A stretch of DNA of 49,491 nt, taken from positions 1-49,491 of IMG/VR virus record IMGVR_UViG_3300026279_000387; one strand, given 5' to 3'. Below the pieces are notes generated by a model, which was not told where the DNA came from, made no database searches, and saw nothing but the letters and a program-made list of their open reading frames with translations. Source of the stretch: a virus (taxonomy: Duplodnaviria > Caudoviricetes). A program made the position numbers and the translations under genes. Of this stretch, positions 3,562 through 44,157 are shown one piece after another; positions within the stretch are counted from its first letter, which is position 1; every line of letters starts with the position of its first letter.

Positions 3562-3572
3562 TCCGGTATAAT

Positions 3573-14471: not shown

Positions 14472-16289
14472 TTAATAGTTTGATACGGTGATTAATTTGT
14501 TATATTCAGGCAGGAATAAGTATTCAATATCACTATTTGCAAGGGTCCTAATAGCATCATCTAGTGTTTCAACTAATGGCTCGCCAGCTAAATTAAAGCT
14601 AGTATTAAACACTATAGAAATACCTGTTTTTTCCTTAAAGGCTTTAATAATATTATAATAATGGGGATTTTGTTTTTCATTTACTGTTTGAATTCTACAA
14701 GTTCCATCTACATGAATAATTGCAGGAATTCGTTCAGCAATACCATCCTGACAATTTACAGCATACATCATAGTTGGTGATGATTCCATTCCACGCAAAT
14801 CAAACCATTCATGAACATCTTCTTCTAAAATTGTTCCTGCAAATGGTCTAAAATATTCTCTATGTTTTACTTCATTTACATGGTCCTTACCATTAGGATC
14901 TGACGGGTCATACATAATAGTTCTATTTCCTAATGCTCTTGGACCGTTCTCACTTCTTCCTTGAAATAGTGTTACAATTTTTCTATCTGTTAATAATGTT
15001 ACAGCATCGTCAATTGTTGCTGTTTTTACATCAGCATTATATTTCTTTGCAACTTCATGTATTTGATCTACGGAATAGTTATATTTCGGCCCTTCATATA
15101 ATGTTTCAACTTGTGGGTTAACAGTAGTATCACCAGTTAACTTTCTATGCCATAGTAATGCCGCACCCATTGCCGTGCCAGCATCATTTGAAACTGGTTC
15201 AACATAAATTTCAATATCTTCATCTTTAAGTGCTTCTAAATAATGATAATTTGCAACACAATTTAATCCATACCCACCGCTAATTACAACTTTCTTTTTG
15301 CCACTTAATTTAACAGATTCTTTAATAAGTTTTACAACTTCGTCTTGTGTTTGTGTTTGTATAGAATAAGCAAAGTCTCTACGATTTTGATATTCTGTAA
15401 TATCGATTTTTTCATCTCTTGTAACGTCGCCTTTTGCAAGTTCAGTAAACATATTATAATTAACATGAGCACCATTTGGATAATCAGGTATAATAACTTG
15501 TCTATCTGCTATAGGGTAAATTGTATCATCTCTAAATATTTTCGGACACTTAGGATTTTCTTTTCCATAAGGAAATAGGCCCATTGTTTTTCCTGCTTCA
15601 ATAAATTGAAAGCCACAATATTCTGTAACGGCTTCGTATGCTTTTGTAATGCCGGCATTTTCTGAGACATGTAAAATATGTGTGGAACCTTCAGGCTCAT
15701 CAAACATTTCACTAGAAAAGTTTCCTATTTTACTACCTATTAATGGACCTCTAACGCCCACATGTTTATAAAGTGTTTTAAATGTTACTGGATACTCGCA
15801 ATCAAAAATACTTTCAGTTTCCCAACATGTCATTCCTTCGTTATTAACACGAAAATCAAGAAAGGTTCCAGCACCGTCAACTACAAGTGCAACTGCGGAA
15901 TTAAATCCACTACGATAAAATGCACAAGCGGCATGTAATTTATGATGAATATGACTTAGATCAATAACTTGCGGATGGCTTTCCGCATATGAATTATGTC
16001 CACGTTGAATTAGTCCTAACTTTCTTGCTAATCCAGTATATGGATCGTCACCACTAAAGTCAATTTTTCCTGCAGATGATTGTAATGATTGCGTATGAGC
16101 TACAATCAGATAATCAAGTTTATCTGTATATTCTAAAATTTTCACAATAGCGGCATAAGGAGCACCGTCATATTTTTGTCTTGTTAAACGTTCTTCTTCT
16201 ATGGCAAATACAACTTCACCATCTTTTAATAGACATACTCCAGCATTGTGTCCTCTGGCTATTCCTGCAATCCAAACCGATTTACTCAT
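14472..16289 (-). CDS. O-carbamoyltransferase, NodU/CmcH/TobZ family
   Basis: AIEEERLTRQK, HHKLHAACAF, VVDGAG, GKTMGL, SGGYGLNCVAN, NDAGTAMGAA, ENGPRALGNR, VKHREYFRPFA, HVDGTCRIQTV and NTSFNLAGEPLVET. Confidence 0.95.
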   Translation of the reverse strand: MSKSVWIAGIARGHNAGVCLLKDGEVVFAIEEERLTRQKYDGAPYAAIVKILEYTDKLDYLIVAHTQSLQSSAGKIDFSGDDPYTGLARKLGLIQRGHNSYAESHPQVIDLSHIHHKLHAACAFYRSGFNSAVALVVDGAGTFLDFRVNNEGMTCWETESIFDCEYPVTFKTLYKHVGVRGPLIGSKIGNFSSEMFDEPEGSTHILHVSENAGITKAYEAVTEYCGFQFIEAGKTMGLFPYGKENPKCPKIFRDDTIYPIADRQVIIPDYPNGAHVNYNMFTELAKGDVTRDEKIDITEYQNRRDFAYSIQTQTQDEVVKLIKESVKLSGKKKVVISGGYGLNCVANYHYLEALKDEDIEIYVEPVSNDAGTAMGAALLWHRKLTGDTTVNPQVETLYEGPKYNYSVDQIHEVAKKYNADVKTATIDDAVTLLTDRKIVTLFQGRSENGPRALGNRTIMYDPSDPNGKDHVNEVKHREYFRPFAGTILEEDVHEWFDLRGMESSPTMMYAVNCQDGIAERIPAIIHVDGTCRIQTVNEKQNPHYYNIIKAFKEKTGISIVFNTSFNLAGEPLVETLDDAIRTLANSDIEYLFLPEYNKLITVSNY

Positions 16290-23620: not shown

Positions 23621-26600
23621 TTAACTTAGTAAAAACTGTTGCATTGCAACTGGGGCTCCACTAACTCCCCCAGAGAAGTGCATTACAGCAGTAGTATTTA
23701 TTAAAGCACCTGTCGTTGTAGTAATAGTGTTACCTTGAATATTAATTACTCCAGCTGTTACACTATTTACATTCAATTCAGAAGCACCGCCACCAATTTG
23801 GGACGTGATATATGTCTTAATTGCTCTTTGTGTTGGAACAATACTGTCACTATTTGCAGTAAAAGTACCGTCTGTACTAAATTCATTAATAACAGCGCCT
23901 GTACTACCTAATGCAACACTTCCTAATTGAAGTTCTTGTAAGCCTGATATACTAAATGCATCAGCATTTAGAGTAGCAATACCTGTAGCCTGTTCAACTG
24001 TAAACAAGTCGCCAACTCTAAAGTTACCGTCTTGGTCCGTTGATGTCATAAACACCCTACCGCCACCACTTTCAACAGTTTCATCTGTTTGATCTGATGG
24101 TGTAGCAGGTATTCCAGGATAGTTAGTGCTAGTAAAGTTACCAGTTCCTACATCCAAAAAGTCATGTCCCGTTAATCGAACTTGACTATATCGAATTCTT
24201 ATTTCTAATTTTTCACCGTGTCCAGGCGAATTTGGAATTTCTATATTTGGACTTAATTGTAATAGTGCTGAGTATGGTCCACTACCATTTAAGTTCGTTA
24301 CAGATACAAGTTTATACCAAGTATTTGTATTTGTAGTAAATTGTACATTTGATCCTGCTTGTGGTATTGATAACATACCTTCAACTTGAACATATTTTCC
24401 ATCTTGTTTTTGATCTCTATATCCAGCGCCAGTATTAGCAGTACCGCCTGATATATACGCAGAGAAAGTAGTTCCTACAGCTGGCCATAATAAATCTTTA
24501 TCTACAAACAGCCTTAATGTATCAACATCAACAACATCAACATAATATGAATTAGCATTAAGTTGATTTGTACCTACTATTTCTGTTATTGCAACTTTAT
24601 CTCTAGCATTCATATTATGTCCTGTAACTGTAATATCTACTATACCGTTACTACCGTTAGTTGGAAGAACTGATAGTCCATGTTGTACAACTTGTGTAAT
24701 AATACTAATTAATTCACCTGTTTTAGTAACAGACGCCGCTTCACCGTTATTAGCATTTGTAGTTTGTGATGTAACTGACTGTAGTGAAGAATGTGCAGTA
24801 TTAGTTAAAATATAAGTTACAATAATATCTCTCATTTGCTCGTATGCTTCAACTATTTGAGCTCTTTCACCTCCAACAAATCTTTCACCTATCCAATATG
24901 TTCTAGCTGATCTAATAGTTTCTGAGTTACTACCATATTTTAAATCATGTACAAATGCATCGACCAAGTATCCTACATCTCTTTCACACTTAATTGCATC
25001 ATGAACAAATCCTCCCCACATACTTGGTGAGCCACTTGCTATTTGTTGTGTAATCCATGCATTAACTTCATCTTTAACATACTCTTTATTTGCTTCAAGT
25101 AACACTACTGCATATGGATTAGCTGTGTATGAAACTCCTGCAATAGTTTTGTCAGTACCTGCATCAGCCACTGTAGCTGTTACAGTTGTAAATCCTGTTC
25201 CTGCATCAGTAAAAGTAGGTTGTGTTAAAACACCGTCGCCAATAAAGACTTCATAAAGTGCATCTGCTGTATTATTAGGATCAGTAAATGTTACTGTTGG
25301 AGTTGCTGTATAAGAAGAACCTGGATTAAAAATTCTAACCTCAGTTATTTTTCCATCAACAACTTTTGCTCTTGCTTGGGCTTGAACTGAACTTGTTGAT
25401 CCATCACCGCTTGGTGCTGAAAACGTTACTCTCGGTTCAACTTGATATGTTGTTGTGTTATCTAATAATGTTTCAATAGCTGTACCACTAATCATGTGAT
25501 CCCAACCAGCAGTATCATCGCTTGGTTTTTTAACTGTAGCAATTTTTGTTCCAGCATTATATGTGTCGATGTATGCAATCTGACCTGCACCTTTACCACT
25601 AGTAATAACAATTGCCATTCCTATGTATGCGTTACTCAATGCTGTATCAGTATTTGATAAAGTAATTTGTGTATCAGTTCCAGCTTGAATTGAATTTCCA
25701 GATGTAATATAATCTTTACCACCAAATGTACTTGAGTTACCAGTTAATCTAACTTGCATAACTCCGCCAGTAACTGTTACTGGAGTTATACCTGCTAGTC
25801 CATAACCATCACCTGAGAATGAATACGTTGTTGTTCCTGGAGTATAATCTCGTCCAGCATTAGTATATTCAAGTGCAATAATTTTATTATTATCAACTAT
25901 TATGCCACCAACTGATGCCGCGTAACTTCTGTTGTCAACGTATGCTTCAATGGCATTTTCTGTTAAATCAACTCTTTCAGATACTGATCCAAAATCACCA
26001 TAAGAGTTATTTCCGTTTGTAGCACGGATCTTACCGCCAGCTTCTGTTAAGTATCCTATATGTCCATAATATGTAAAGACCGAAACAAGTTCAGCTCTAC
26101 CTAAGTTAGTAACCCAAATTGCAATTCCATCATCAATAATTTGTGTAAAGTCGTTTGCTACAATTGAGTCATTACCGCCTGCATGTAATTCGCCATCTAC
26201 TTTAGCACCAACACATTTTGTACCTATTGTAGTAACATTTTGTATATAAGGTGATTTTAACGTAATCCAAGTTGATTTATCATTTGTACCCCAACCTGGA
26301 TCTAGTGAAATAAATGCACCTGCTGTTGGGCGTTTAGTTCCATAAGTATTTGTAATTCCAGTTGATACATATTCAAAATCACTTATACTTTTCGATTCTG
26401 ATACAGCGTATGTAATTTTTTGTACAGTACCTCCACTAACATAATTATGTACTAGTGTACTTTTGTCCATACCAACAACAAATGTATTTGCATCCGGAAC
26501 ATCATAAACATAAAATATTCCTGAATCTTGTGTTGCATCTGGAAATACTTTTTCTGATACACCGCCACTTGAAGTACAATTAACTAATATACTTTGAAGT

Positions 26601-29600
26601 TTAACATAATCTCCAACTGCTAATCCGTGTGTACTAGAAGTAACAGTTGTGTATCCAGAAGTATTAATGTAACTAAATGCACTAACGTCTGTTGCACTAC
26701 CTACATTTGTAACAACTGCTTTTTTAACTGTACCGCCACTAACATAAGTATGAACTGTATTACTTGTTGGCAGGAAGAAATTAATTTCGCTATTACTTGG
26801 TTTTCTAGTTACAGGATAAACTCCTGAATATGGCATCTGTGGATAAATTTTAGTTCCATAAGAACAAGTTAATGTAATACCATATAAGTTTACAGTATCT
26901 GATGCTGACAAACTATGTGTTGCTGTAGTAACTGTAGCAATACCGGTTCCTTCATTATAAACAAACCCTGTAATTGCAAGTCTTGAGTTATCAGCTTTTT
27001 TAACTGTACCACCACTAACATAAGTGTGTGCAGTACTGCTTGTTCCTATATTAATTTCAAACGCTGTTCCAGTTAATCCTGATCCAAGTACTGTGAAACT
27101 TGTAGTATTTGAAACAATAGGATATGTTTTATTTCCTGATGGACAACTAACTAATATATCTCTTAATTCTACTAATTCATTTACATCTCTATTATGTGGA
27201 GCCGATGTTGTAACACTTGCTCTGTAAAATGTACCTGTTAATCCTTTAACAGTCATATTTCTTACGCCGGTTCCGTTTTGAACATAGAACATGTCTTCTT
27301 TTTCACAGCCGGTTGTCGCGTTTGCAATCCAACGTCCGTATAGTGTTGATTTATAATTACCGTAATTTTCTAAGTCGTATATAACTGAATCAAGATAATG
27401 TTTTACATCTGTTTTACATTTTGCATCTTTAGTAAAATCATAAGTGCTAGTGTGGTTTGTTTTTAACCATGCTACTACTTCGTCAGCAATAAAATCTTTA
27501 TTTTCAAGAATTCTTAATCTTGCATCAACATATCCTTGTGTTGAATCTCTGCCAGACTTACCAGTTACTTTAGGAAGTGTGCCTACACCAAATACTTTAA
27601 CATTAATTGTATCATGAATATCTTGAATTAATGCTTGTGCTTGTGTACCTGCCGCGGCTGATCCTGCCGGTAATGCTACGTCTTGTGTTTGTGTGTTACC
27701 AGCATCAATTGTTGCAACATTCATTGTGAATGCCGCCGCTCCGCCACTACCTAAGTTAGCATCTGCAATTGTAATTGTGTGTCCTACACTATGTCCTGAT
27801 CCACCAGTAGCAACTGTAACTGTACAAGCACCTGAACCATCAACAACAATGTTAAATGTTCCTACTGTACCAGCTCCACTTGATGTACCTGTTACACCAT
27901 TATAAGTTCCTGCTGTTCTACTTGCATCAGCGGCACCTAATGTACCCATTGTTAAGTGAGCACCTGCTGGTGTTTTTGTAAATGCACTATTAGTACAAAT
28001 ATTATCAATGAGCCCTTTAACGTGTGTTAATCCGTTAAGTGACTGTGTTACATGAGCTGTACTTTGTGTAGCATCTCCTGATTTCAATGCATTGATTTCT
28101 GTTGAACGTAATTCATCTCCAACAACTGCACAATGTTCTGGAACAATCATTGGTAATACTTCTTTATAAATTCCTGTTTTTACAAATAATGTATCATAAG
28201 GTTTTACTTCAGTTGATAAAGCATCAGTATTACCAGCTGTAATAACATCAGTAATTATTTTTGCTAATGCTTGAATAGTTGTATAAACTCCAGCTTCAAC
28301 ATTTTTTGTTGCATCAATTTTTTGTATAACTTGTGATCCACCTGCAACACCGTTTGTTGTTTGATAATTTATTGCTGGTGCTAAGTTTCTAATAGTAGTA
28401 TCAATAATTGATACAGCGTAATTAATTACATCAACTGTTTGTGTTGTTTGTCCTGAAATATAACTTGCGCCAGCCGTTGTAAAGAATGATTTAGCCGCTT
28501 CACGTGTACGTACATTTCCGCCATGTCCAATATCATAAAGCATAGCATCTATGATAATTCCTATATCACGTTCACATTTTGCCGCATCATGTGAATATCC
28601 TGTACTAAATGGTGCTGAGTTATTTGCTATTTTCCAAGCAACATATTGTATACCAGCTTCTTCACTAATAAATGCTTTATTGCGTTTTAATAAAATTGCA
28701 CCGTCTGGATTTCTAGGACCTTTTCTAATTTCGTTTAATGCGTATCTAGTTGACTTCCAAGGTTTGTCAAGAGTTGTACCATCTATAGGAGCAATTCCAT
28801 CGTTACCAGCAGGACCAACATAATAAACATGATCGACAGCACCAAAGTATGCCCATTCTGGAGCGTCACCTGCCGCATTAACTTTTAATACCTGTCCAGC
28901 TGTTCCAACTGGCAATCTAACAGGACCTGATCCACCGTAGTAAACTATATCACCAGCAGTAGTTAGGTTTCCTGATTCAACACCACCTGATAATAATTTC
29001 CAGTAAGTGCCTGTAGCATCTTGATCTGGTCTATTTTGTGTCGTAACTTCATCAGCTGTATGTTCTAGTACACAAATATAAGAGTTAGTTCCTGCCGCGC
29101 CTCTTACAGAATCACCTTGATCATAATAGGCTCCGTTTGCCCAGGCGTCTTTCCATTTAATTCCTGAGTTTAATCTTTCCCAATAAGTTGCGTTAGGTGG
29201 TCTATTACCTGTTGAGTTTGCTTTACAAAGATATGTATAACCACCAACTCTAACAACGTCGCCTGTTTTATAAGCAGTAGCATTATCATAGTCGCCCTGC
29301 ATACTAAAGCCAGTTGTAAATAAATCCCAAGTTCCTGGATTACCAAATGGTACAACGTTTGAGTTGTTTATTGTTGCAATATAAGAGTAACCACCGTATG
29401 TTACAAAGTCACCTGGTTGATAACTAGTTGCATTAGACCAACTGTCTTCAAATTCTAATCCTGGAACAAATTCAGTCCATAATGTAACAGTTGTAATTGT
29501 TGCAACATTAAATGTAAGTACTGCACCTGATCCACCAATTTGTGTAGCTGGAATTGAAATTACATCAGTTGCTACATGACCAAATCCGCCATGTACTAAT

Positions 29601-30565
29601 GTAACTGTACAAGCACCGACACCATCAACTACAACCTTGAATCTCATTTCTGTACCGCTACCACTTGAAGTACCAGTTACATCATTGTATGTTCCTTCTG
29701 TTCTAGTTGCATCAGCGGCACTAATTGTATCAATAGTTGCTATTGCTCCTACTCTCGTTAAGTCTGCGGCAAGATTAGTTGTCGATGTATGATGTATATT
29801 ACAAAGCCATAAGCCTCCACCATACTTAACAACATCATTAGCTTTATATCTTGTTGTTCCTGCATGAACTGATTTATATTCTATACCTTTATGTAAGTAA
29901 TCCCATTTAGTTTGATCTGCTTCTAGGCCTTCTACTAACGTTCCGGAAATATGTCCTTCATTACAAATATAAAGTTGTCCACCATATTTTACTTCGTCGT
30001 GTTTTTTATATCTTGTAGTAATTGACCAGTCAGCTTTCCAATCTTGTCCTTGTGCAAAAGTATCCCATTTAGAAGCATCAGCTTCTAATCCATCAGTATC
30101 ACTATTAAATGTTCCTGATGATGTGTGTGGAGCTGTACATAGATAAAGTGTTCCACCATACTTAACAATATCATTAATCTTGTAAACAGTATTAGTAGTC
30201 CATAAATTTTTCCAGTCAAACCCCTCTGAAAAAAGGTCCCATTTTGCTTGATCAGTTTCTAATTTTCCTGCAACTTCGGCTGTATGAGCTGTGTTACAAA
30301 TATATAAATATCCACCGTATTTTACGATATCATTTGATTTATAAACAGTTCCGGGAGTCCAATCATTTTGCCACTCAGTACCATCTGAAAATTTCTGCCA
30401 TTTAGTTGCTTCGTCTGTATAAAATACGCTTGAAGCTGTGTGGCCAGTTATACAAATATATGTACGTCCGCCACTGCGAACTATATCATCTTTGTAATAA
30501 ACGGTAGAGGCAACCCATGCCCCTTTCCATACAAATCTTATTCTTCCTAGTTTAAATTCAGCCAT
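23621..30565 (-). CDS. Giant (2314 aa) virion protein with CBM5/12-like repeats
   Basis: N-terminal tandem W....Y..(G/N)D.V.YGG..Y.C...H repeats; YYVGPAGND...PWKS beta-helix-type start; three KC(E/K)(R/T)D helical repeats; C-terminus shared with the 1760-aa gene (YSQVRLTGHDFLDVGTG, STDQDGNFRVG). Confidence 0.85.
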   Translation of the reverse strand: MAEFKLGRIRFVWKGAWVASTVYYKDDIVRSGGRTYICITGHTASSVFYTDEATKWQKFSDGTEWQNDWTPGTVYKSNDIVKYGGYLYICNTAHTAEVAGKLETDQAKWDLFSEGFDWKNLWTTNTVYKINDIVKYGGTLYLCTAPHTSSGTFNSDTDGLEADASKWDTFAQGQDWKADWSITTRYKKHDEVKYGGQLYICNEGHISGTLVEGLEADQTKWDYLHKGIEYKSVHAGTTRYKANDVVKYGGGLWLCNIHHTSTTNLAADLTRVGAIATIDTISAADATRTEGTYNDVTGTSSGSGTEMRFKVVVDGVGACTVTLVHGGFGHVATDVISIPATQIGGSGAVLTFNVATITTVTLWTEFVPGLEFEDSWSNATSYQPGDFVTYGGYSYIATINNSNVVPFGNPGTWDLFTTGFSMQGDYDNATAYKTGDVVRVGGYTYLCKANSTGNRPPNATYWERLNSGIKWKDAWANGAYYDQGDSVRGAAGTNSYICVLEHTADEVTTQNRPDQDATGTYWKLLSGGVESGNLTTAGDIVYYGGSGPVRLPVGTAGQVLKVNAAGDAPEWAYFGAVDHVYYVGPAGNDGIAPIDGTTLDKPWKSTRYALNEIRKGPRNPDGAILLKRNKAFISEEAGIQYVAWKIANNSAPFSTGYSHDAAKCERDIGIIIDAMLYDIGHGGNVRTREAAKSFFTTAGASYISGQTTQTVDVINYAVSIIDTTIRNLAPAINYQTTNGVAGGSQVIQKIDATKNVEAGVYTTIQALAKIITDVITAGNTDALSTEVKPYDTLFVKTGIYKEVLPMIVPEHCAVVGDELRSTEINALKSGDATQSTAHVTQSLNGLTHVKGLIDNICTNSAFTKTPAGAHLTMGTLGAADASRTAGTYNGVTGTSSGAGTVGTFNIVVDGSGACTVTVATGGSGHSVGHTITIADANLGSGGAAAFTMNVATIDAGNTQTQDVALPAGSAAAGTQAQALIQDIHDTINVKVFGVGTLPKVTGKSGRDSTQGYVDARLRILENKDFIADEVVAWLKTNHTSTYDFTKDAKCKTDVKHYLDSVIYDLENYGNYKSTLYGRWIANATTGCEKEDMFYVQNGTGVRNMTVKGLTGTFYRASVTTSAPHNRDVNELVELRDILVSCPSGNKTYPIVSNTTSFTVLGSGLTGTAFEINIGTSSTAHTYVSGGTVKKADNSRLAITGFVYNEGTGIATVTTATHSLSASDTVNLYGITLTCSYGTKIYPQMPYSGVYPVTRKPSNSEINFFLPTSNTVHTYVSGGTVKKAVVTNVGSATDVSAFSYINTSGYTTVTSSTHGLAVGDYVKLQSILVNCTSSGGVSEKVFPDATQDSGIFYVYDVPDANTFVVGMDKSTLVHNYVSGGTVQKITYAVSESKSISDFEYVSTGITNTYGTKRPTAGAFISLDPGWGTNDKSTWITLKSPYIQNVTTIGTKCVGAKVDGELHAGGNDSIVANDFTQIIDDGIAIWVTNLGRAELVSVFTYYGHIGYLTEAGGKIRATNGNNSYGDFGSVSERVDLTENAIEAYVDNRSYAASVGGIIVDNNKIIALEYTNAGRDYTPGTTTYSFSGDGYGLAGITPVTVTGGVMQVRLTGNSSTFGGKDYITSGNSIQAGTDTQITLSNTDTALSNAYIGMAIVITSGKGAGQIAYIDTYNAGTKIATVKKPSDDTAGWDHMISGTAIETLLDNTTTYQVEPRVTFSAPSGDGSTSSVQAQARAKVVDGKITEVRIFNPGSSYTATPTVTFTDPNNTADALYEVFIGDGVLTQPTFTDAGTGFTTVTATVADAGTDKTIAGVSYTANPYAVVLLEANKEYVKDEVNAWITQQIASGSPSMWGGFVHDAIKCERDVGYLVDAFVHDLKYGSNSETIRSARTYWIGERFVGGERAQIVEAYEQMRDIIVTYILTNTAHSSLQSVTSQTTNANNGEAASVTKTGELISIITQVVQHGLSVLPTNGSNGIVDITVTGHNMNARDKVAITEIVGTNQLNANSYYVDVVDVDTLRLFVDKDLLWPAVGTTFSAYISGGTANTGAGYRDQKQDGKYVQVEGMLSIPQAGSNVQFTTNTNTWYKLVSVTNLNGSGPYSALLQLSPNIEIPNSPGHGEKLEIRIRYSQVRLTGHDFLDVGTGNFTSTNYPGIPATPSDQTDETVESGGGRVFMTSTDQDGNFRVGDLFTVEQATGIATLNADAFSISGLQELQLGSVALGSTGAVINEFSTDGTFTANSDSIVPTQRAIKTYITSQIGGGASELNVNSVTAGVINIQGNTITTTTGALINTTAVMHFSGGVSGAPVAMQQFLLS

Positions 30566-30623: not shown

Positions 30624-33600
30624 CTATCCATGTGGATTTTGATGATCAACATTATCATAGTGTCCTTCTGGATCTTCATATAATTCTTGATTCATTTGCA
30701 TGCCTGCAGATATACCATTGTTAAAGTATGCCGAAGCTAAAATTGAACCACTCACTCCGCCCTTCATGTTTACTAAGACCGGCACGTCAATTACTAATCC
30801 ACCAGTATTTGATATTTGATTTAAGTTGCTTAGTTTAACAGTTCCTGCCAAAACAGCATTAGCAGATACATTTGATCCACCACCGCTAATTCTACTTGTT
30901 ATATAAGATGCTATAGCTCGCTGTGTTGGTACAATGTTATTTGAGTTTGCAACAAATGTACTTTCTTTAGAAAATTCTCTAATAACTGCTTGAGTGCCGC
31001 CAACAATGATTGCTCCTAATCTTAACTCATTTAAACCTTTTAAGTCAAACTGTGAAGCATTAATTGTTACAACACCAGTACTTTGTTCAACTTTAAATAA
31101 CTCACCAACTCTAAAGTTACCATCTTGGTCAGTTGACGTATAAAATACTCGCCCGCCTGCATATTCAATAGTTTCGTTTGGTTGTTCTGGAGGATAAACT
31201 GATGAATATCCTTCAGTATATAATTTTGGATAATCAGTAGTTAATTTACCACCAGTACCAACATCTAAGAAATCGTGTCCTGTTAACCTAACTTGACTAT
31301 AATATTGTCTAATAACTATATCTTCTTCATGTACTGGAGATTCAGCATTACCCATAGTTGGTGCAAGTGAAATCTTTGCAGTAATATTAGGTACTGCTCC
31401 ACTTAATGTTTCAACAGATCCAACTTTGTAAATTAAATCATTAATACTTGTAAACGTTAAGTTATCACCAGGTCCTGGTAATAGTGATAAGTCTTTAACA
31501 ATAAAATGTAGACCTGTTTGGAATTGATCTGCAAATCCGTCGCCAGTAATTTCAACCTGGTTAAATTTTGTATAACCACCTCCTCTATTTTTAAAGATAG
31601 GTTGTCCTAGCACACCGTTATTAACTCTTACACTAATAGTTGGTTCTAATGTTTTTTGTGTATCATAAAAATAAACAATTGGTGGTATAGCAGAGTCGTA
31701 TCCACTTCCGGGTTCAGTTGTTAACACTTGTGAAATTCTACCAGTATCGGTAGTTACTCGCATTTTTGCAGTAGCACCATATCGTAGTAGTGTTATAGTA
31801 GGTTGTGAATTAGTATCTAGTATCCACCATTTTGGACCAACGTCTGTTCTAAATGTTACTATTGGTTTTAATGCCGTTCCTGGAGTAATATTAGCTTGTG
31901 ACATCCATACATGCCCACCATCACTTGTTCTAATTTTACCAGTATTACTATTAGCTACAAACACTCCATCATTATAAGCAACAGACCAATCGTCTGTATC
32001 AAGAATATTACTGTTATCTGATTCATACCATACTGAGCTAGTTGCACCAGTTGAAAAGTCTGTGAAGCTAAAGAAGAACGTTGATGATAATCCAAACGTT
32101 GCACTTGTAGTCGATGTTGCATCACTAATCATTGTAGTTGAAGGATCTACGTTTGCACCTATTGAGAATGTTCCGTTTGGTTTACATGTTGCTACAAATC
32201 TATTGTTACCCCAAGTAAATCCTGTTACATCATAAGTTGATGGACAAACATTATTTCCTGCAACCCAAGTAGTACCGTCATCAATACTTTGCATACAAGA
32301 CCCATCGGCTCTAACTATCATCCATTTACCATTACCATAAGCAATCCATTTCAAGCCTACAGCACCACCAGTAGCTATACCGGTCCATGTTGTTCCGTCT
32401 GCTGTAGTTCTTTGAACTGTTGCAGAATCATCTGCAATCGCAATTACTGTATGACTTGTAGTAGTGTGTGGTCCTTCTACTACAGCAACATAATTTGCTG
32501 ATGTTATAGTATATGGTGTAGTTCCCCAGGCTGTTCCTGTTGTAGATAAGTTAACATATCCGCCATTACCTAAGGCAATGTAATATTTTAATTTACCTTT
32601 ACATTTTATTACACAATTTGGATCAACCCAATTAGCATCTTTTGACCCTGCTGTCCATACTGCTCCGGTTAAGTTAGAATGTAGTATTTTTTCACTAGAG
32701 TCAGTAAATGCAATTAATGTTTCTCCGTGGCCTGTAGCTGTACGCCAAGTACTTGTAACACCAGTATTCATAACTGATGTAGTATATGTTGGAGTAGTGA
32801 CTGTAACTCTAGGTTCAATTCTATAAGTTGTAGTACCATCAAGTACAGTAGCAATTGTCCATCCTGGAACTATATGATCCCAGCCACGTTTTCCATCACT
32901 TTCTCTTAATACGTTAATAAGTTTTGTTGCTGGAAAATATTCATCAACAATACCATACTGACCTCTACCTTTACCTTGTTCTATATAAATTCTTTGCCCT
33001 TCACTAACACTAGCAACTTTAAATGTTAATACTGGTCCACCTTGATTACCTAAGTTAACATCTGAAACTGTAATAGTATCACCAACTCTATGACTATGAC
33101 TTCCTGCTAACGGTATAATTGATGTTGCCGCACCTGTTCCGTCGATAGTAATTGAAAATGCCTGTTGCGGAACATGTCCTCTACCATTTGTAGTTGCTGG
33201 AACAATAGGATACGTTCCAGCGGGCCTTTGTGCCGCGGCAACACTAATATTATCAAATGTTAAGTATGCTCTGCCGGCATAATAACTTGCATCATTAATA
33301 TCAGATTGTGCAATAGTAATGTTAGTAGTTGTTCCTGATTGTGCAGAGTTTCTTATACCAGTAAGGAATCCTCTACCGCCAGGTAGTGTTGAGTCACCTG
33401 AATCTTTTAATCTAATTTCACTAATTCCGCCGTTTCTTGTTTCTGTAAATGTATTATCAGTAGATACGTTAGTACCTGATCCGCTTACAGTAAATTGTGC
33501 ATTAACATAGCCTTGCCCTGAATGTGTATAAGCTATAGCAAAAATATTATCAGCATTATTATAAACCTCTGGAGCACTTGCACCATAATATTGATTATGT

Positions 33601-35906
33601 ACTTTTGCAGTTATAGGAGTTTCAGTTGCTAAAGTACCAATTGCCGCTGAACCAAATGTTCCGTAAGAGTTATTTCCGTTAGTTCCTCTTATTTTTCCAC
33701 CGTCTGTACATAAGTATCCTATGTGACAAAAATATGTAAACACTGAAACAAGTTCAGCTCTTGCGTCGCCACTTAACCATACACTAATTCCGTCATCTAA
33801 AAAGTTAGTAACATCATTAGCAACCATTGATTTAAGTCCGCCATTATGTAAGTTACCGTTAAGTCTTAATCCTGTAACACCAGTACCAAACGAACTAATA
33901 TTTTGACAATATGGAGATTTTGTTGTAATCCATACGCTTTGATCATCTGGGCCTGATCCTGGATCAAAAGATGCATAAGCACCACCTTGTGGACGTTTAG
34001 TTCCATAAACATCAGCCGGACCTAAGTTTCCTGACAGGCCCATAAACGTCATGTTTTTAATACCAGTACCGTTTCTTAAAAGCCACATATTTAAACCTTC
34101 TGATCCTGGGGCAGGTTTAATTGTTACTGAACGTCTTTCATCCCCCCAAACAGTAATTCCTGCTGGAATAATAATAGGAAGAATTTCTTCGTAAACTCCT
34201 GTTGAAACAAAAATTGTTCCTGGGGCTCTATTTGCCTCGTCTGCTAAAATATATTGACAAGCATATTTCATTGATTTAAATGGAGCACTAATGCTTAATC
34301 CGTTACCTGGTGCATCTTTTCCTGATGTAGATACAAAGTAAACTTTAGCAACTTCGCCTAATCCTTCCCAGGCTGGGTTAACACTAGCATTAACTTTTAA
34401 TGCACTACCTGGAGAACCAATAGCAAGTCTAGTATGATTACTACCATCATGAGTTCTTAAGTCACCTTTATATTGTAATACGTTTCCTGGAGAACCTTGA
34501 ATATGTTTTTCCCAATAACTATTAGTGCTATCTAAATCTGGTTCAACTAATGTTGAATCATCTGCTTCGTGTCGTTGTTTACAAACCCAAGCAGTACTTT
34601 TATGTACAACAATATCACCTAAAGAATAAATTGTTCCTGCGGAATCAACCCACTCGCCTGTATAATAATCACCTGTAGTAACTACTTGCCAATATGTTGG
34701 CGTACTATCTGGTGAAGTAGTAGATCCTGGATCATAATAAGAACGAAGTTCTGGATCTAGTGCATCTGGTTCTTGACCTACTGAATCTTTAACAGCAATA
34801 TACACCCATCCTCTTCGTCTAACAACGTCACCAGTTCTATACGAAAGACCAATTTCCCATTCTGATTTCATACTATAACCAGTAGTTAATAACTCCCAGT
34901 CATATGTTCCTTGTAAACTTTCTCCGTCATAAAATACACCAGTCACACTTGGTGCTGATGCTGTATTATTTGTCATTGATGTATAAGTGTAACCACCATA
35001 CTGTACAATGTCACCTGGTTGGTATGCAACAGAAGTGTCCCATAAACCTTCAAATCCTAATCCAGGCATCCATATATCAAAATTAGCTTCAATAAATGTA
35101 TTTGTAGTAGTATGTGCAGTTTTACAACGCCATAATGTTGGACCATATGTTATAATGTCGCCAACTTTATATCTAGTACCGCTTGAATCATCTGATGATT
35201 GCCAAGTACCTTTATATACAATACCACTAATTACAATTTCCCACTTAGCTTGATCATTTTCTAATCCTAATACAGTTGTTCCGGCAGATGAGTGTCCAGC
35301 TATACAACGATAAACAATTCCACCATAGCGTACAATATCATCTTTAAAATATCTTGTATTAACGCTCCAATCTTTGTTCCAAGAGTCGCCACGCCATTTA
35401 ATTTCCCATTTAGCTTGGTCAACTTCTAAACCACCTAGTGTTGTTGAAGATGTATGTTCAGTTATACATTTATAAACATAACCACTATAACGAATAACGT
35501 CATCAATTGTATATGTTGTTAAAGGTAACCATTCATTACGCCAATTTGGGGTTTTGTAATATACAATAAGTTTTGATTCATCACCAGCAATACTACTATT
35601 ACCTGAAGTATGTTCAGTTAGTACTCTATAAATTACAGCGCCATATTTTACTAAATCGTTTTTATTATATATTGTAGCGGCCTGCCATTCATTACGCCAT
35701 GTATAACCTTCAGTATGTAGTAACCATCTAGACTTTGGACTATAATTTAAATCAGTTGGAAAATCAGTTGAGTCTGAAGTGTGGCCGATCATACAAATAT
35801 AAGTATTACCACCTACGCGAACTACATCATCTTTAGTGTAAACTGTAGCACCAGTCCAGTAATTCTTCCATGTATATCGTATTCTTGCAATATTAAATTC
35901 AGCCAT
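30624..35906 (-). CDS. Giant (1760 aa) virion protein, paralog of the 2314-aa protein
   Basis: MAEF...RIR..WK start, CBM5/12-like repeats, BNR/Asp-box-like S.D.G.TW repeats and a shared C-terminal domain. Confidence 0.85.
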   Translation of the reverse strand: MAEFNIARIRYTWKNYWTGATVYTKDDVVRVGGNTYICMIGHTSDSTDFPTDLNYSPKSRWLLHTEGYTWRNEWQAATIYNKNDLVKYGAVIYRVLTEHTSGNSSIAGDESKLIVYYKTPNWRNEWLPLTTYTIDDVIRYSGYVYKCITEHTSSTTLGGLEVDQAKWEIKWRGDSWNKDWSVNTRYFKDDIVRYGGIVYRCIAGHSSAGTTVLGLENDQAKWEIVISGIVYKGTWQSSDDSSGTRYKVGDIITYGPTLWRCKTAHTTTNTFIEANFDIWMPGLGFEGLWDTSVAYQPGDIVQYGGYTYTSMTNNTASAPSVTGVFYDGESLQGTYDWELLTTGYSMKSEWEIGLSYRTGDVVRRRGWVYIAVKDSVGQEPDALDPELRSYYDPGSTTSPDSTPTYWQVVTTGDYYTGEWVDSAGTIYSLGDIVVHKSTAWVCKQRHEADDSTLVEPDLDSTNSYWEKHIQGSPGNVLQYKGDLRTHDGSNHTRLAIGSPGSALKVNASVNPAWEGLGEVAKVYFVSTSGKDAPGNGLSISAPFKSMKYACQYILADEANRAPGTIFVSTGVYEEILPIIIPAGITVWGDERRSVTIKPAPGSEGLNMWLLRNGTGIKNMTFMGLSGNLGPADVYGTKRPQGGAYASFDPGSGPDDQSVWITTKSPYCQNISSFGTGVTGLRLNGNLHNGGLKSMVANDVTNFLDDGISVWLSGDARAELVSVFTYFCHIGYLCTDGGKIRGTNGNNSYGTFGSAAIGTLATETPITAKVHNQYYGASAPEVYNNADNIFAIAYTHSGQGYVNAQFTVSGSGTNVSTDNTFTETRNGGISEIRLKDSGDSTLPGGRGFLTGIRNSAQSGTTTNITIAQSDINDASYYAGRAYLTFDNISVAAAQRPAGTYPIVPATTNGRGHVPQQAFSITIDGTGAATSIIPLAGSHSHRVGDTITVSDVNLGNQGGPVLTFKVASVSEGQRIYIEQGKGRGQYGIVDEYFPATKLINVLRESDGKRGWDHIVPGWTIATVLDGTTTYRIEPRVTVTTPTYTTSVMNTGVTSTWRTATGHGETLIAFTDSSEKILHSNLTGAVWTAGSKDANWVDPNCVIKCKGKLKYYIALGNGGYVNLSTTGTAWGTTPYTITSANYVAVVEGPHTTTSHTVIAIADDSATVQRTTADGTTWTGIATGGAVGLKWIAYGNGKWMIVRADGSCMQSIDDGTTWVAGNNVCPSTYDVTGFTWGNNRFVATCKPNGTFSIGANVDPSTTMISDATSTTSATFGLSSTFFFSFTDFSTGATSSVWYESDNSNILDTDDWSVAYNDGVFVANSNTGKIRTSDGGHVWMSQANITPGTALKPIVTFRTDVGPKWWILDTNSQPTITLLRYGATAKMRVTTDTGRISQVLTTEPGSGYDSAIPPIVYFYDTQKTLEPTISVRVNNGVLGQPIFKNRGGGYTKFNQVEITGDGFADQFQTGLHFIVKDLSLLPGPGDNLTFTSINDLIYKVGSVETLSGAVPNITAKISLAPTMGNAESPVHEEDIVIRQYYSQVRLTGHDFLDVGTGGKLTTDYPKLYTEGYSSVYPPEQPNETIEYAGGRVFYTSTDQDGNFRVGELFKVEQSTGVVTINASQFDLKGLNELRLGAIIVGGTQAVIREFSKESTFVANSNNIVPTQRAIASYITSRISGGGSNVSANAVLAGTVKLSNLNQISNTGGLVIDVPVLVNMKGGVSGSILASAYFNNGISAGMQMNQELYEDPEGHYDNVDHQNPHG

Positions 35907-41583: not shown

Positions 41584-41964
41584 CTATTGCCCATCAACTG
41601 TTACTGTATTTGTTACAGCATCATCTTCACCGCCAGCATCACTGCCACCGATAACCATTTTTCCTCTTGTAGTACCTTCGTACTGACAATTGTTATTCCA
41701 AATTTTTGTAATTTGTACAACGGTAGAGTCATCTAACACGCCGTCAATTACCATATCGCCTGCTACTAATGTACCAGCGGCTTTATTAACTAAAGTTAAT
41801 ATTTCAGTAGTTGTACCATCTGATACTTTAAATTTGTTTGTAGATCGTTGTGACACAATCCATGCTTTAGTATTTGATTCAGATGCACTAGTAAAGAAAT
41901 ATCGGGTAACTTGAATTTTTCCATTACCTTCCCCGAAATTTCTTTTATTTACTGGTCTACCCAT
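41584..41964 (-). CDS. Hypothetical structural protein (MGRP.NKR family)
   Basis: Paralog of 42040..42501; has its own late promoter. Confidence 0.65.
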   Translation of the reverse strand: MGRPVNKRNFGEGNGKIQVTRYFFTSASESNTKAWIVSQRSTNKFKVSDGTTTEILTLVNKAAGTLVAGDMVIDGVLDDSTVVQITKIWNNNCQYEGTTRGKMVIGGSDAGGEDDAVTNTVTVDGQ

Positions 41965-42039: not shown

Positions 42040-42501
42040 TTATGCGTCATCAGTAAAGTCGTCGTCATCAGCATTATCAACGTCATCATCACCTGCTTCT
42101 TCAATTCTAACTATGCCTGAAGATGCGGCTGACCCCATTTGCCATGTTTGTGCGAGTCCGTCTAATGCATTAGATCCAGTTGCACTTGGTTGTGCAAGTG
42201 TAACTTTATGGCCGGCAATCTTTGCTACACCATAAGTTTCTGAATCGCTACCTAAAGCTGTAATTGACATTTCGCCAGCACTTAAAGCCGCTGGTAATAC
42301 GCCAGTTTTTAATGTACAAGTGAACTCAGTGTCCGCGGCACCTGTTTCAGCAACTACGAATTTTTTAGATCCTTTTTGTCTGATAATAGTACCTTCTTTT
42401 ACTGCTGTTCCGTTATGAAAATTTACTTTGATTTCATTAGCACCTGCAGTTGCGCCTGTTGTCGCATCTGTAAAGTACCTTTTGTTTAGTGGTCTTCCCA
42501 T
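42040..42501 (-). CDS. Hypothetical structural protein (MGRP.NKR family), possible head decoration protein
   Basis: First protein gene after gp23; AAGGAG RBS; acidic C-terminal tail. Confidence 0.65.
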   Translation of the reverse strand: MGRPLNKRYFTDATTGATAGANEIKVNFHNGTAVKEGTIIRQKGSKKFVVAETGAADTEFTCTLKTGVLPAALSAGEMSITALGSDSETYGVAKIAGHKVTLAQPSATGSNALDGLAQTWQMGSAASSGIVRIEEAGDDDVDNADDDDFTDDA

Positions 42502-42580
42502 TTTTTTTCTCCTTTGTCAACGTTCTAAGTCTACGGGGTTGTGTCCCCATAAAACGCAAAATTGCGTCCTTATACTGTTA

Positions 42581-42588
42581 TATTTATC
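42581..42588 (-). promoter_or_regulatory. Putative late promoter GATAAATA
   Basis: Intergenic exact copy. Confidence 0.7.
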
Positions 42589-42604
42589 AATATGAGTGTA
42601 TAGT

Positions 42605-42637
42605 CAAAAGAAAACCCCACATATGAATATGTAGGGC
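42605..42637 (-). terminator. Intrinsic terminator of the candidate ncRNA
   Basis: CCCUACAUAU-UC-AUAUGUGGG hairpin followed by GUUUUCUUUU. Confidence 0.75.
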
Positions 42638-42645
42638 GTATAAAA

Positions 42646-42860
42646 TAAGCAAAATAGGTAGGACTTGGGTACACCTACAAGCACGGACCGAAATACCATT
42701 TCTAAACCGTACAACCTATCCCCGCGGGTTAATGCGATGTGAGCCTGCGTATTTCTACTACAAACCCTGGGTACCACCCCTGGACAGTCAAGTTCGACTC
42801 TTTTGGTAGGAGCCTCTTCCTTGCACTATAATTAGAAGTTAATTACTCTTCTAATGCTTA
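42646..42860 (-). ncRNA. Candidate ~215-nt structured non-coding RNA
   Basis: No ORF; higher GC than other intergenic DNA; ends pair (UAAGCA/UGCUUA); several hairpins; flanked by a promoter and a terminator. Confidence 0.65.
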
Positions 42861-42867
42861 TATTACT

Positions 42868-42896
42868 AATATAACACCGTTTATATTAAAAGTCAA
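42868..42896 (-). promoter_or_regulatory. sigma70-type promoter TTGACT-N17-TATATT with extended -10 TG
   Basis: The -35 is at 42896-42891 and the -10 at 42873-42868, with an exact 17-bp spacer. Confidence 0.75.
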
Positions 42897-42938
42897 TCGG
42901 AAAGTGTAAAAAGGTTATCCAAAATAGGAAAAAATGTC

Positions 42939-42970
42939 AAAAAGAAAGGGCGACATAAAGCCGCCCTTCC
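42939..42970 (-). terminator. Intrinsic terminator after the major capsid gene
   Basis: GAAGGGCGGC-UUUAU-GUCGCCCUUU hairpin followed by CUUUUU. Confidence 0.85.
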
Positions 42971-42993: not shown

Positions 42994-44157
42994 TTAAGAG
43001 AATGTTACGTTCGCGATAGATACTCTACCCAAGTAGTCAGCCGCATTACCAAGAGATGATGCTGTGTTGTTTAACTCAACATATCCATATCTTGACATGA
43101 AACTTACAACTGGCTCAAAGCTAGATGGATCCAACACAACACCGCTTGACATTAAAGGAATGTATGGGCAGTAGAACGCTGGAGCGTCTGCTTCTGAAGT
43201 ACCTTTGTAACCAACAAGTACGTCCGTACTATCAGCCGCATATGAATCAACATATACTTTCATTGCACCGTTTAGTGTTCCTACAAATTTAGTATTTGTT
43301 GGAGCTTCAAATGTGCCTTCAGTTGTTCTTGCGAACGCTGAAGTTGTAGCTGATTGTAGTACAGTAAGAGCGTGTGGTGAAACCACAGCCCAGTTACCAG
43401 CACCACGACGTGTACGCTGAGCAATAGTATTTGCAACGCGGTTAACCATTACAGCCAAAGCCGCATGTTCGTCACCGACGAAAGTTGCAGTACCACTTAC
43501 AGCATTTTGATCGTATGCTTGTTGTGCCGATCCTGCTAAAGCACGTAATGATGCAAGAACTTCTTGATCAATTTCAGCAGTAATTTCTTGGGCTAATGCC
43601 GCCATAATTTCTGCTTCGATATCAATACCTTGCTGTGCTTGAGCATCTTGAGCCGCTTCAAAAGTCCAGCGAGCTGATAGCTTTCTGGTTTTTGCTTCGA
43701 CTGTTTGCTTTAAGATTTGGATGCTTAACTTCTTGCCAGCTTCCCCTTCAAGTGCCGCTGTTGCGCCACCTTTTGGAGTTGCGTCTGTGGCATTACCGGA
43801 ATAAGCCGCCGCAATCTTAAATGGTGAAAGTGCTTCTTCACCTACTTCGTTACCGTCACTCGCGTCACTGTAACGTACTCTTAGTGTGTGGATTTGACCC
43901 ACTGGACCTGTCATCGGCTGTACACCAACTAATTCGTTGGCTATTACAGTCGGCATAACACGTCTGATTACTGGTAGGATAACTCTATTTAGAGTTGCAA
44001 CATTACCGGCTGACGTAGCGCCAGCTCCTGCAGTCTCATTCAACCACTTGCGTGTGTTTTCAAGAGTACTTGCCATTACTGCTTTCTTATTGCCCTGAAG
44101 GCCTTCTAAAAGAGCGGTTTTGGTATCCTGCCAGCGATTTTCTAGTAGTTCTGACAT
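42994..44157 (-). CDS. gp23: Major capsid protein (T4 gp23-like)
   Basis: RRVMPTVIANELVGVQPMTGPVGQI, VEAKTRKLSARWTFEAAQD, EITAEIDQE, AFYCPYIPL and SRYG. Confidence 0.97.
   Translation of the reverse strand: MSELLENRWQDTKTALLEGLQGNKKAVMASTLENTRKWLNETAGAGATSAGNVATLNRVILPVIRRVMPTVIANELVGVQPMTGPVGQIHTLRVRYSDASDGNEVGEEALSPFKIAAAYSGNATDATPKGGATAALEGEAGKKLSIQILKQTVEAKTRKLSARWTFEAAQDAQAQQGIDIEAEIMAALAQEITAEIDQEVLASLRALAGSAQQAYDQNAVSGTATFVGDEHAALAVMVNRVANTIAQRTRRGAGNWAVVSPHALTVLQSATTSAFARTTEGTFEAPTNTKFVGTLNGAMKVYVDSYAADSTDVLVGYKGTSEADAPAFYCPYIPLMSSGVVLDPSSFEPVVSFMSRYGYVELNNTASSLGNAADYLGRVSIANVTFS

What the first reader, a model, noticed from the sequence alone, without database searches (positions are those of the whole stretch)
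42605..42896. Stand-alone structured ncRNA gene with a host-type promoter inside the late capsid region
Seen: after the gp23 terminator come a near-consensus TTGACT-N17-TATATT promoter, about 215 nt without an ORF, and a second terminator. Manual folding gives a terminal helix UAAGCA/UGCUUA and hairpins AUUAGAAG/CUUCUAAU, GUCGA/UUGAC, GGGU/ACCC, GGGUUUGU..GUA-GAAA-UAC..GCAGGCUC (GNRA loop), GUACGG/CCGUGC with GAAAU/AUUUC, and GUAGG/CCUAC. GUACC/GGUAC could form a pseudoknot. It lacks the hallmarks of tRNA, tmRNA or RNase P that I can recognise. Inference: an early-expressed multi-helix phage RNA (ribozyme, protein sponge or decoy, anti-defence, or packaging-associated RNA).
Basis: partly seen in the sequence, partly recalled or inferred. 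Interest (0 to 1): 0.8.

Follow-up and report, generated by a model that had tools for sequence, protein, structure and literature searches.

The report
Free-standing manA-type phage RNA gene
Behind its capsid gene, an uncultured marine phage carries a real, folded RNA of about 215 bases of the known but unexplained "manA" kind, set between its own promoter-like and terminator-like signals rather than leading into a protein gene, with loops that change in step across relatives and likely clip copies of the RNA into small rings or cages.

Summary
The feature is real but not a new kind of RNA. The stretch 42853-42648 (minus) matches all 192 positions of Rfam manA (RF01745): E 1.4e-11, 48.9 bits, under the 55.2 cut-off. 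Of 20 homologous loci, 19 match manA and 7 pass. Across 49 homologs, 48 of 62 helix pairs show compensatory change. Loops L5-L7 and L8-L9 covary; these are the intermolecular contacts of manA pentamers and cages in a 2026 cryo-EM preprint. A sigma-70-type promoter precedes 48 of 50 homologs and a terminator follows 17 of 49; downstream genes are unrelated. RNA contigs confined to the element occur in 3 of 8 metatranscriptomes laid (a weak hint). This argues against Rfam's cis-regulator label here. The RNA is optional cargo (5 of 21 spanned slots). It likely acts in trans as a self-assembling RNA; its partner is unknown. This scan reported the same RNA on other DNA before.

The parts
42994..44157 (-). 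Major capsid protein gene (upstream neighbour, not part of the RNA)
   Evidence: phrog_138 E 2.9e-101; best cultured matches 67-70% to GAP32/CBB-like and Phosso jumbo phages
42936..42970 (-). Intrinsic terminator of the capsid operon (stem 42970-42944, then U run)
   Evidence: capsid RNA contigs stop at 42941 (X10), 42960 (X18) and 42962 (X6)
42868..42896 (-). Sigma-70-type promoter: -35 TTGACT 42896-42891, 17 nt, extended -10 TATATT 42873-42868; +1 predicted near 42861
   Evidence: same position in 48 of 50 homologs, background 0.4%
42646..42860 (-). manA-type RNA body, 215 nt, closed by an extra terminal helix P0 (42860-42855 with 42651-42646) that the Rfam model lacks
   Evidence: Rfam match 42853-42648; P0 has changes on both sides at 5 of 5 pairs; coordinates
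42832..42854 (-). P1 hairpin, followed by P2 (42829-42826 with 42657-42654)
42789..42823 (-). P3: basal helix 42823-42820/42792-42789, apical helix 42814-42810/42800-42796, loop L3 42809-42802 with invariant ACC
42716..42787 (-). P4 four-way junction: P5 with loop L5 (42777-42772), long P6 with GAAA tetraloop (42755-42752), P7 with loop L7 (42733-42726)
   Evidence: L5-L7 complementarity covaries (0 of 5000 permutations)
42658..42712 (-). P8 with loop L8 (42698-42694) and P9 with loop L9 (42673-42663)
   Evidence: L8-L9 covaries (1 of 5000 permutations)
42604..42637 (-). Intrinsic terminator of the RNA gene, wholly downstream of P0
   Evidence: 9.7 expected pairs inside the hairpin and 0.0 from its 5' arm to the RNA body
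42581..42588 (-). GATAAATA, resembling a T4-type late promoter (consensus recalled) for the next gene
   Evidence: downstream RNA contigs begin at 42548 (X1, X2) and 42562 (X6)
42500..42569 (-). freshwater-2-like leader (RF02980) of the next gene; separate from the finding
   Evidence: 41.5 bits against cut-off 49.9, E 4.9e-5, match cut at the end of the stretch searched
42040..42501 (-). Downstream 153-aa gene of unknown function
   Evidence: no PHROG or Pfam family

Best explanation
This is a divergent manA-type structured RNA encoded as its own small gene between a sigma-70-type promoter and a terminator; its covarying loops likely pair between copies to build pentamer-based particles that would act in trans during infection as a multivalent scaffold or decoy for a host or phage factor. 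Shown here: the manA fold, conservation of promoter and helices, loop-loop covariation (L5-L7, L8-L9), no conserved ORF, patchy occurrence. Weakly indicated: a separate transcript of about 200 nt. Inferred: host-polymerase (early) transcription; pairing between molecules rather than within one (by analogy to solved manA RNAs); a decamer of the long-P6 type rather than the 60-mer; and the decoy or scaffold role, whose partner is not identified.
For: Full-length Rfam manA match; 19 of 20 homologous loci match manA and 7 pass the cut-off. 48 of 62 pairs compensated. L5-L7: 0 of 5000 permutations reach the observed complementarity, also over 15 distinct loop types; L8-L9: 1 of 5000 (5 of 5000 over 19 types). 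Among the 37 homologs outside the subgroup with the window's enlarged L7, 36 keep three Watson-Crick pairs through four sequence types: GGU/ACC 18, UGU/ACA 12, UGC/GCA 4, UAU/AUA 2; UAU/AUA sits on two separate branches of a tree built without the loop columns. One L8-L9 pair is U-A in 37, A-U in 7 and broken in 5 of 49. Preprint 10.64898/2026.07.01.735769 reports L5-L7' with L8-L9', or L5-L7' with L3-L8' and a GNRA contact, as intermolecular contacts of manA pentamers. Promoter in 48 of 50, terminator in 17 of 49 (shuffles 1%), no predicted antiterminator. Next genes include gp32, rubrerythrin, redoxin, cold-shock protein and unknowns. Contigs confined to 42668-42846 (X1), 42658-42853 (X2) and 42658-42846 (X8, a variant), none bridging to either neighbour. 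The canonical manA of P-SSM7 also lies between a TTGACA-17-TATAAT promoter and a terminator-like hairpin (read by eye).
Against: The window copy is under the Rfam cut-off (48.9 against 55.2). Covariation cannot tell intra- from intermolecular pairing. The window's own L5-L7 match is only 3 bp, among the weakest in the set. The cages were made in vitro at about 3 mg/mL RNA with 10 mM Mg2+, and the preprint passages I read report no in vivo role. L3-L8 is complementary (5 bp in the window) but shows no significant covariation (493 of 5000; 47 of 500), and it competes with L8-L9 for the same bases, so the assignment to one assembly type is unresolved. 5 of 8 runs laid showed no contig on the RNA although they cover the capsid gene. 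Contigs cannot show ends, strand or level, and no DNA run was laid as a control. 5 of 50 homologs, and the canonical P-SSM2 copy, run straight into a gene within 30 nt, which is leader-like. No binding partner was tested.
Confidence: 0.45

Rival explanations
1. A stand-alone RNA that works as a monomer: the same loop pairs form intramolecular pseudoknots that build a compact ligand-binding or catalytic core, and the cages are a product of high in vitro concentration.
For: The covariation fits intramolecular pairing equally well. The invariant unpaired GGAAGA and GAAC strands of the P3 internal loop look like a conserved functional site. The Weinberg figure legend marks a 'pseudoknot?' in manA.
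Against: The five manA RNAs named in the preprint section all formed defined oligomers, and the loop contacts described for two of them are intermolecular. No ribozyme family matched in Rfam.
Confidence: 0.2
2. A cis-regulatory leader or riboswitch that controls the next gene, as Rfam and the discovery paper propose for manA.
For: PMC2864571 calls manA cis-regulatory and a riboswitch candidate. 5 of 50 homologs (including Mosig, before rubrerythrin) and the P-SSM2 copy (16 nt before purL) have a gene right behind.
Against: In the window the terminator lies outside the fold with no predicted alternative pairing. The next gene has its own late-promoter-like motif and freshwater-2-like leader. 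No RNA contig bridges 42564-42657. Downstream genes share no pathway. Two homologs sit directly behind tRNA or tmRNA genes without a promoter.
Confidence: 0.12
3. A mobile promoter-RNA cassette kept mainly as a strong promoter, transcript stabiliser or passenger, with no target of its own.
For: Present in 5 of 21 relatives in which the slot between the capsid gene and the next gene is spanned; slot length varies from 139 to 1137 nt. It occurs at unrelated loci in different phage groups.
Against: Compensatory change in loop-loop pairs and 43 invariant columns indicate selection on a tertiary fold. In terminated copies there is no mRNA to stabilise.
Confidence: 0.1
4. A prohead-RNA analogue: a five-membered ring joined by kissing loops that sits on the five-fold portal vertex and helps head assembly or DNA packaging.
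For: manA RNAs form pentamers through intermolecular loops. phi29 pRNA self-associates by intermolecular loop pairing, with pentamer models on the prohead (PMC5066667). The window copy lies right behind the capsid gene, and its 5' and 3' ends pair.
Against: The same review says only phi29-like phages are known to need such an RNA. Absent from 16 of 21 spanned slots. No match in 5 large related contigs, one 92% complete (the same model did find Mosig; fragments may miss it). Other copies lie by gp32 or tRNAs, not head genes.
Confidence: 0.05
5. A tRNA 3'-end decoy: UGGU loops would bind the ACCA ends of uncharged tRNAs, as T-box antiterminators do (T-box feature recalled, not from a call).
For: L5 and L8 of the window both contain UGGU; some homologs lie in tRNA or tmRNA arrays.
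Against: L5 loses GG in 19 of 49 homologs, and L7 changes in step in 18 of them, so its partner is L7. L8 changes with L9. No T-box family hit.
Confidence: 0.04

Closest known systems
manA RNA motif, Rfam RF01745 (Weinberg et al. 2010, PMC2864571; cryo-EM preprint 10.64898/2026.07.01.735769)
   Same: Same order of helices P1-P9 over the whole model, L5 GUGGU loop with ACC in L7, the same P9 end, marine phage origin; covarying L5-L7 and L8-L9 loops match the solved intermolecular contacts. By eye it is closest to the two NZ_ rows of the original alignment (taken to be the gamma-proteobacterial or Photobacterium copies): long P6 and complementary L3 and L8.
   Different: Scores 48.9 bits, under the 55.2 cut-off; has an extra terminal helix P0; J2/3, L3, L8 and L9 differ from the cyanophage consensus; is followed by a terminator rather than a gene; lies in a GAP32/CBB-related jumbo-type phage rather than a cyanophage.
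GOLLD and ROOL RNAs (10.1101/2024.12.08.627333)
   Same: Phage-borne structured RNAs of unknown function, often near tRNA genes, that form RNA-only nanocages with kissing loops whose contacts are conserved.
   Different: Several times longer (659 nt; over 800 nt) and separate families; neither matched in the Rfam searches.
phi29 prohead RNA (pRNA; PMC5066667)
   Same: Similar size, paired 5' and 3' ends, self-association by intermolecular loop pairing, pentamer models.
   Different: Essential and confined to phi29-like phages; no Rfam match here; this RNA is optional and mobile in a portal/protease/MCP system of T4-like layout.

Membership tests
manA RNA (RF01745) | Covariance-model score at or above the gathering cut-off of 55.2 bits | tested here: not met
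   Window 48.9 bits, E 1.4e-11; none at gathering level in the whole window. 7 of 20 homologous loci pass, so the subfamily straddles the cut-off.
manA RNA (RF01745) | Full-length match with helices P1-P9 in the model's order | tested here: met
   Model positions 1-192 of 192 matched; helices supported by compensatory change
manA RNA (RF01745) | Complementary L5 and L7 loops (kissing contact of the solved structures) | tested here: met
   0 of 5000 permutations; only 3 bp in the window copy. Loop numbering inferred from the model order, figures not seen.
manA RNA (RF01745) | Second loop contact, L8-L9 (A0F1 type) or L3-L8 (pho34 type) | tested here: inconclusive
   L8-L9 covaries; L3-L8 is complementary but too conserved to test; both are possible in the window copy
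manA RNA (RF01745) | Position in a 5' UTR (cis-regulatory annotation) | tested here: not met
   Terminator right after the RNA, separate late-promoter-like motif and leader for the next gene; the canonical P-SSM7 copy also has a terminator-like hairpin
manA RNA (RF01745) | Self-assembly into pentamer-based oligomers | not testable with these tools
   Needs SEC, mass photometry or cryo-EM
phi29-type prohead RNA | Present in all members of the phage group and needed for packaging | tested here: not met
   5 of 21 spanned slots; 0 of 5 large related contigs, one 92% complete
phi29-type prohead RNA | Binds the prohead and the packaging ATPase | not testable with these tools
   Needs biochemistry
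Riboswitch | Expression platform that overlaps or can pair with the aptamer | tested here: not met
   The terminator 5' arm has 0.0 expected pairs with the RNA body in the window and at most 0.85 (of 8 bases) in the 17 terminated copies (equilibrium folding only)
tRNA / tmRNA | ARAGORN or Rfam detection | tested here: not met
   0 genes in the window
Small protein-coding gene | Conserved open frame across homologs | tested here: not met
   Start codon kept in 30 of 49, frame of 50 codons or more in 4 of 49

The most novel reading that the evidence does not exclude
Marine phages transcribe manA-type RNA as an independent early gene whose product assembles inside the infected cell into an RNA-only pentamer or decamer cage that sequesters a host defence or stress factor. 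That would make the manA family a class of trans-acting phage RNA particles misfiled as riboswitch candidates, and the loop covariation shown here would be evidence that the cage contacts are under selection.
Probability: 0.2. Interest if true: 0.8.

Novelty: new variant of a known kind. Interest (0 to 1): 0.4.

Why it matters
manA has been listed as a cis-regulatory riboswitch candidate since 2010, and a 2026 preprint showed that it builds RNA-only cages in vitro while still describing it as a putative 5' UTR element. This locus and its relatives suggest that many copies are separate genes and that the loop contacts seen in the structures are kept by compensatory change. That shifts the question from 'which ligand' to 'what does the particle bind'. 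A homolog above the Rfam cut-off lies in a cultured phage (Pelagibacter phage Mosig, host HTCC1062), and canonical copies lie in P-SSM2 and P-SSM7, so the question can be tested. The RNA class itself is not new, and this scan has reported it on other DNA.

Tried and rejected
Rfam at gathering level found nothing in the window; only the E-value search showed manA. Single-sequence folding gave no signal (z -1.38). L5-L3 and L8-L7 pairings showed no cognate excess over distinct loop types. The 57-codon frame was rejected. A terminator-antiterminator switch was looked for and not found. My first terminator script was too strict and was replaced, which still misses hairpins visible by eye in L082 and L004. 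Contig depths (X2: 63.7 on the RNA, 7.5 on the capsid gene, 5 downstream; X1: 279.6, 279.3, 17) are not used to rank expression, as the tool advises. In genome contigs 3 of 14 pattern hits were real copies, all in metagenome bins and probably phage contigs, so no host-chromosome copy was shown. BLAST of cultured phages found only Mosig as a substantial match; its second place was not confirmed by the model (1 match). In one search the L7 label 'CACT' was wrongly given to L088, L109 and L110 by my pattern; I took their loops and left the 12-row enlarged-L7 subgroup out of the 36 of 37 count. The host of the window's phage was not identified. No paper giving an in vivo function or a stand-alone transcript for manA turned up in searches (open-licence PMC and bioRxiv only).

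Full report
Setting. The window is a 49.5-kb virus record. The minus strand carries portal, head protease, a probable scaffold and major capsid genes. The capsid protein is 67-70% identical to those of Sinorhizobium phage Phosso, Vibrio phage 2.275.O and the GAP32/CBB jumbo phages, so this is an uncultured jumbo-type phage of T4-like layout. The 20 RNA runs that hold the region are labelled marine or seawater metagenome in 16 cases and plain metagenome in 4. The host is not known.

Observation. Between the capsid stop codon (42994) and the next start codon (42501) lie a terminator (42970-42944), TTGACT-17-TATATT with an upstream TG (42896-42868), about 215 nt, a second terminator (42637-42614), a GATAAATA motif (42588-42581) and a structured leader. 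On their own the signals are weak: promoter-like sites are no commoner than chance in this region (13 against 16.0) and the fold has z -1.38. The comparative evidence is what makes the feature real.

Identity. Rfam gives nothing at gathering level. At E-value level the stretch 42853-42648 matches all 192 positions of manA (RF01745) with 48.9 bits, E 1.4e-11, against a cut-off of 55.2. From these, the capsid-neighbour loci and Mosig I kept 110 full-length matches, 80 distinct, 50 after clustering at 95%; 49 were aligned, leaving out L105 with its long insert. Of 20 chosen loci, 19 match manA and 7 pass the cut-off, among them Pelagibacter phage Mosig at 64 bits. Of 12 more, two canonical cyanophage copies score 182 and 176, one homolog 63, and nine score 44-50. 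The RNA is therefore a divergent branch of the manA family that straddles the threshold. Because the window copy fails the cut-off and the 5' UTR criterion, I file it as a variant.

Structure. A 62-pair structure set by hand on the MAFFT alignment has 93.2% of cells paired and 48 pairs with changes on both sides; 0 of 500 shuffles reach this, and slid controls give 35-50% paired. RNAalifold independently predicts 41 pairs, 32 compensated, covariation term -10.3 kcal/mol. Related sequences can beat such shuffles without structure, but compensation occurs in all 12 helices. GUCGA/UUGAC does not (2-nt loop, no compensation, clash with P3), nor does the GGUAC/GUACC pseudoknot (62.3% paired). A terminal helix P0 joins the predicted +1 region to the 3' end, varies on both sides at 5 of 5 pairs, and is not in the Rfam model. 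A 57-codon frame overlapping the RNA is not conserved (4 of 49 reach 50 codons).

Loop contacts. I numbered loops by the order of helices in the Rfam model, which is my inference for the preprint's numbering; its figures were not seen. Cognate L5 and L7 loops are more complementary than shuffled pairs (0 of 5000; also 0 of 5000 over 15 distinct types), as are L8 and L9 (1 of 5000; 5 of 5000 over 19 types). L5-L9 falls below its null and L3-L8 is not significant (493 of 5000). Leaving out the 12 rows with the window's enlarged L7, 36 of 37 homologs keep three Watson-Crick pairs through four sequence types, and the rarest type lies on two separate branches of a quick tree built without the loop columns. 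One L8-L9 pair is U-A in 37 rows, A-U in 7 and broken in 5. L3-L8 has two invariant G-C pairs and one compensated cell, too little variation to test. The window copy itself has 3 bp for L5-L7, 4-5 for L8-L9 and 5 for L3-L8. The preprint 10.64898/2026.07.01.735769 (abstract, search passages, sections 8 and 13 read; figures and supplement not seen, and the supplement may bear on numbering and type) reports that manA RNAs form pentamers, decamers, an octamer and a 60-mer, held by intermolecular L5-L7' and L8-L9' kissing loops in one type and by L5-L7', L3-L8' and an L6-P6' GNRA contact in the other. The window RNA has a long P6 with a GAAA loop and complementary L3 and L8, like the two NZ_ rows in the original alignment (PMC2864571, supplementary file 5, part 120 of 282, compared by eye). 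A decamer of that type is the simplest prediction, but L8-L9 is the contact that covaries in my set, so the type is open.

Stand-alone gene or leader. A promoter of the form TTG-16/18-TAnAnT ends 38-44 nt upstream of the core anchor in 48 of 50 homologs, against 0.4% elsewhere in the same loci. The two exceptions lie directly behind tRNA or tmRNA genes. A terminator follows in 17 of 49 (1% in shuffles), and its 5' arm is not predicted to pair back into the RNA (0.0 pairs in the window, at most 0.85). In 17 of 50 an ATAAATA motif overlaps the 3' end; in those whose next gene lies within the locus it is of the gp32 type. Next genes also include rubrerythrin, redoxin, a cold-shock protein and unknowns (13 selected downstream proteins scanned). 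Against a purely stand-alone reading, 5 of 50 homologs have a start codon within 30 nt and neither signal, as does the canonical P-SSM2 copy before purL. The canonical P-SSM7 copy has a promoter and a terminator-like hairpin. Weinberg et al. (passages read) classed manA as cis-regulatory from its position before varied genes; S-CREM1 lists it the same way (PMC9964418, passages). Two further papers (10.1101/2020.02.04.933952 and PMC7779021, passages) concern only its alignment.

Expression. Of 22 listed RNA runs, 8 were laid. Three, from three studies, have a contig confined to the RNA: 42668-42846 and 42658-42853 with no differences, and a variant at 42658-42846. No contig covers 42893-42939 or 42564-42657, while separate contigs cover the capsid gene and the downstream gene. 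Five runs cover the capsid gene but not the RNA. Contigs cannot show ends, strand or level, and no DNA run was laid, so this is a weak hint of a discrete transcript of about 200 nt.

Distribution. The model R1 finds the RNA in 7 of 80 capsid-neighbour loci, and in 5 of the 21 in which the slot up to the next conserved gene is spanned. It finds none in five large related contigs, one 92% complete (positive control Mosig). The RNA is optional cargo.

Mechanism. The most likely reading (0.45): host sigma-70 polymerase makes an RNA of about 250 nt (inferred) that folds into the manA core (shown by covariation). Loops L5-L7 and L8-L9 or L3-L8 pair (shown as covariation, or complementarity for L3-L8), probably between molecules as in the solved relatives (inferred). 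The resulting ring or cage works in trans as a multivalent scaffold or decoy (inferred from the lack of a regulated gene, optional presence and conserved unpaired strands; no partner known). Rivals are a monomeric binding or catalytic RNA (0.2), a cis-regulator (0.12), a passenger cassette (0.1), a pRNA-like packaging ring (0.05; PMC5066667 passages) and a tRNA-end decoy (0.04). GOLLD and ROOL are the nearest functional analogues: phage RNAs of unknown function that form cages (10.1101/2024.12.08.627333, passages).

Novelty. The family, its fold and its self-assembly are in print. Searches found no paper with an in vivo function or a stand-alone transcript for manA; subscription journals were not searched. 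Earlier notes of this scan describe the same RNA as a stand-alone manA gene in other genomes; I had reached the manA assignment, the promoter and terminator counts and the loop tests before reading them, and took from them the lead to the long-P6 type, the tRNA-trap rival and the cargo-slot idea. What this locus adds is the family-wide promoter and terminator census, quantified loop covariation and a hint of expression. Verdict: new variant of a known kind, interest 0.4.

Noticed in passing
window 42500-42569 (-); L003, L005, L007, L083, L110, L119, L121, L145, L159, L214: A freshwater-2 RNA (RF02980) leader follows in these loci, in front of the conserved unknown gene starting MGRP where that gene was identified; several copies pass the Rfam cut-off.
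   Followed up: partly
L003 3754-3803; L083 1847-1896; L153 1119-1168; L160 1864-1914; L119, L121, L145: Glutamine riboswitch aptamers (RF01739, above cut-off) lie a few hundred bases upstream of the manA-type RNA in relatives; the window has none at gathering level.
   Followed up: no
L085 1577-1902; L105 1651-2026; L207 2076-2487; L081 588-891: Alphaproteobacterial-type permuted tmRNA genes lie on the same contigs as manA-type RNAs; in L085 and L207 directly upstream, with a long insert in the tmRNA of L207.
   Followed up: no
L008 3412-3634; L119, L121, L145, L183: A more divergent subgroup (53-68 bits with model R1; 44-45 bits with Rfam manA for the four scanned) with different L5, L7, L8 and L9 sequences but the same promoter-RNA-terminator layout where read.
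   Followed up: partly
gp32-adjacent homologs, e.g. L086, L095, L102, L130, L136, L141: The L6 GNRA tetraloop is replaced by a UUACCA-type loop, giving a further ACC loop with no assigned partner.
   Followed up: no
L214, L216 (Neomarinimicrobiota bin), L207 (Verrucomicrobiales bin): Full-length copies occur in bacterial metagenome bins; L214 has the phage-type promoter, terminator and freshwater-2 layout, so these are probably binned phage contigs.
   Followed up: partly
window 42040-42501 and 41584-41964 (-): Two tandem genes with similar N-termini (MGRP...) and no PHROG or Pfam family; the first follows the capsid gene in at least 21 of 80 relatives.
   Followed up: no
window 640-4175 (+) and 14472-16289 (-): Auxiliary genes: NUDIX hydrolase, heptose kinase/adenylyltransferase-like protein, nucleotide-sugar epimerase, cysteine dioxygenase, 2OG-Fe(II) oxygenase and a NolO-like carbamoyltransferase.
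   Followed up: no
window 4172-12940, 23621-30565, 30624-35906 (-): Three very long ORFs (2922, 2314 and 1760 aa) among virion genes, not examined.
   Followed up: no
L217 1402-1599 (P-SSM2); L218 1406-1599 (P-SSM7): Both canonical cyanophage manA copies have a TTGACA-17-TATAAT promoter immediately upstream, and neither is annotated in the GenBank record.
   Followed up: partly
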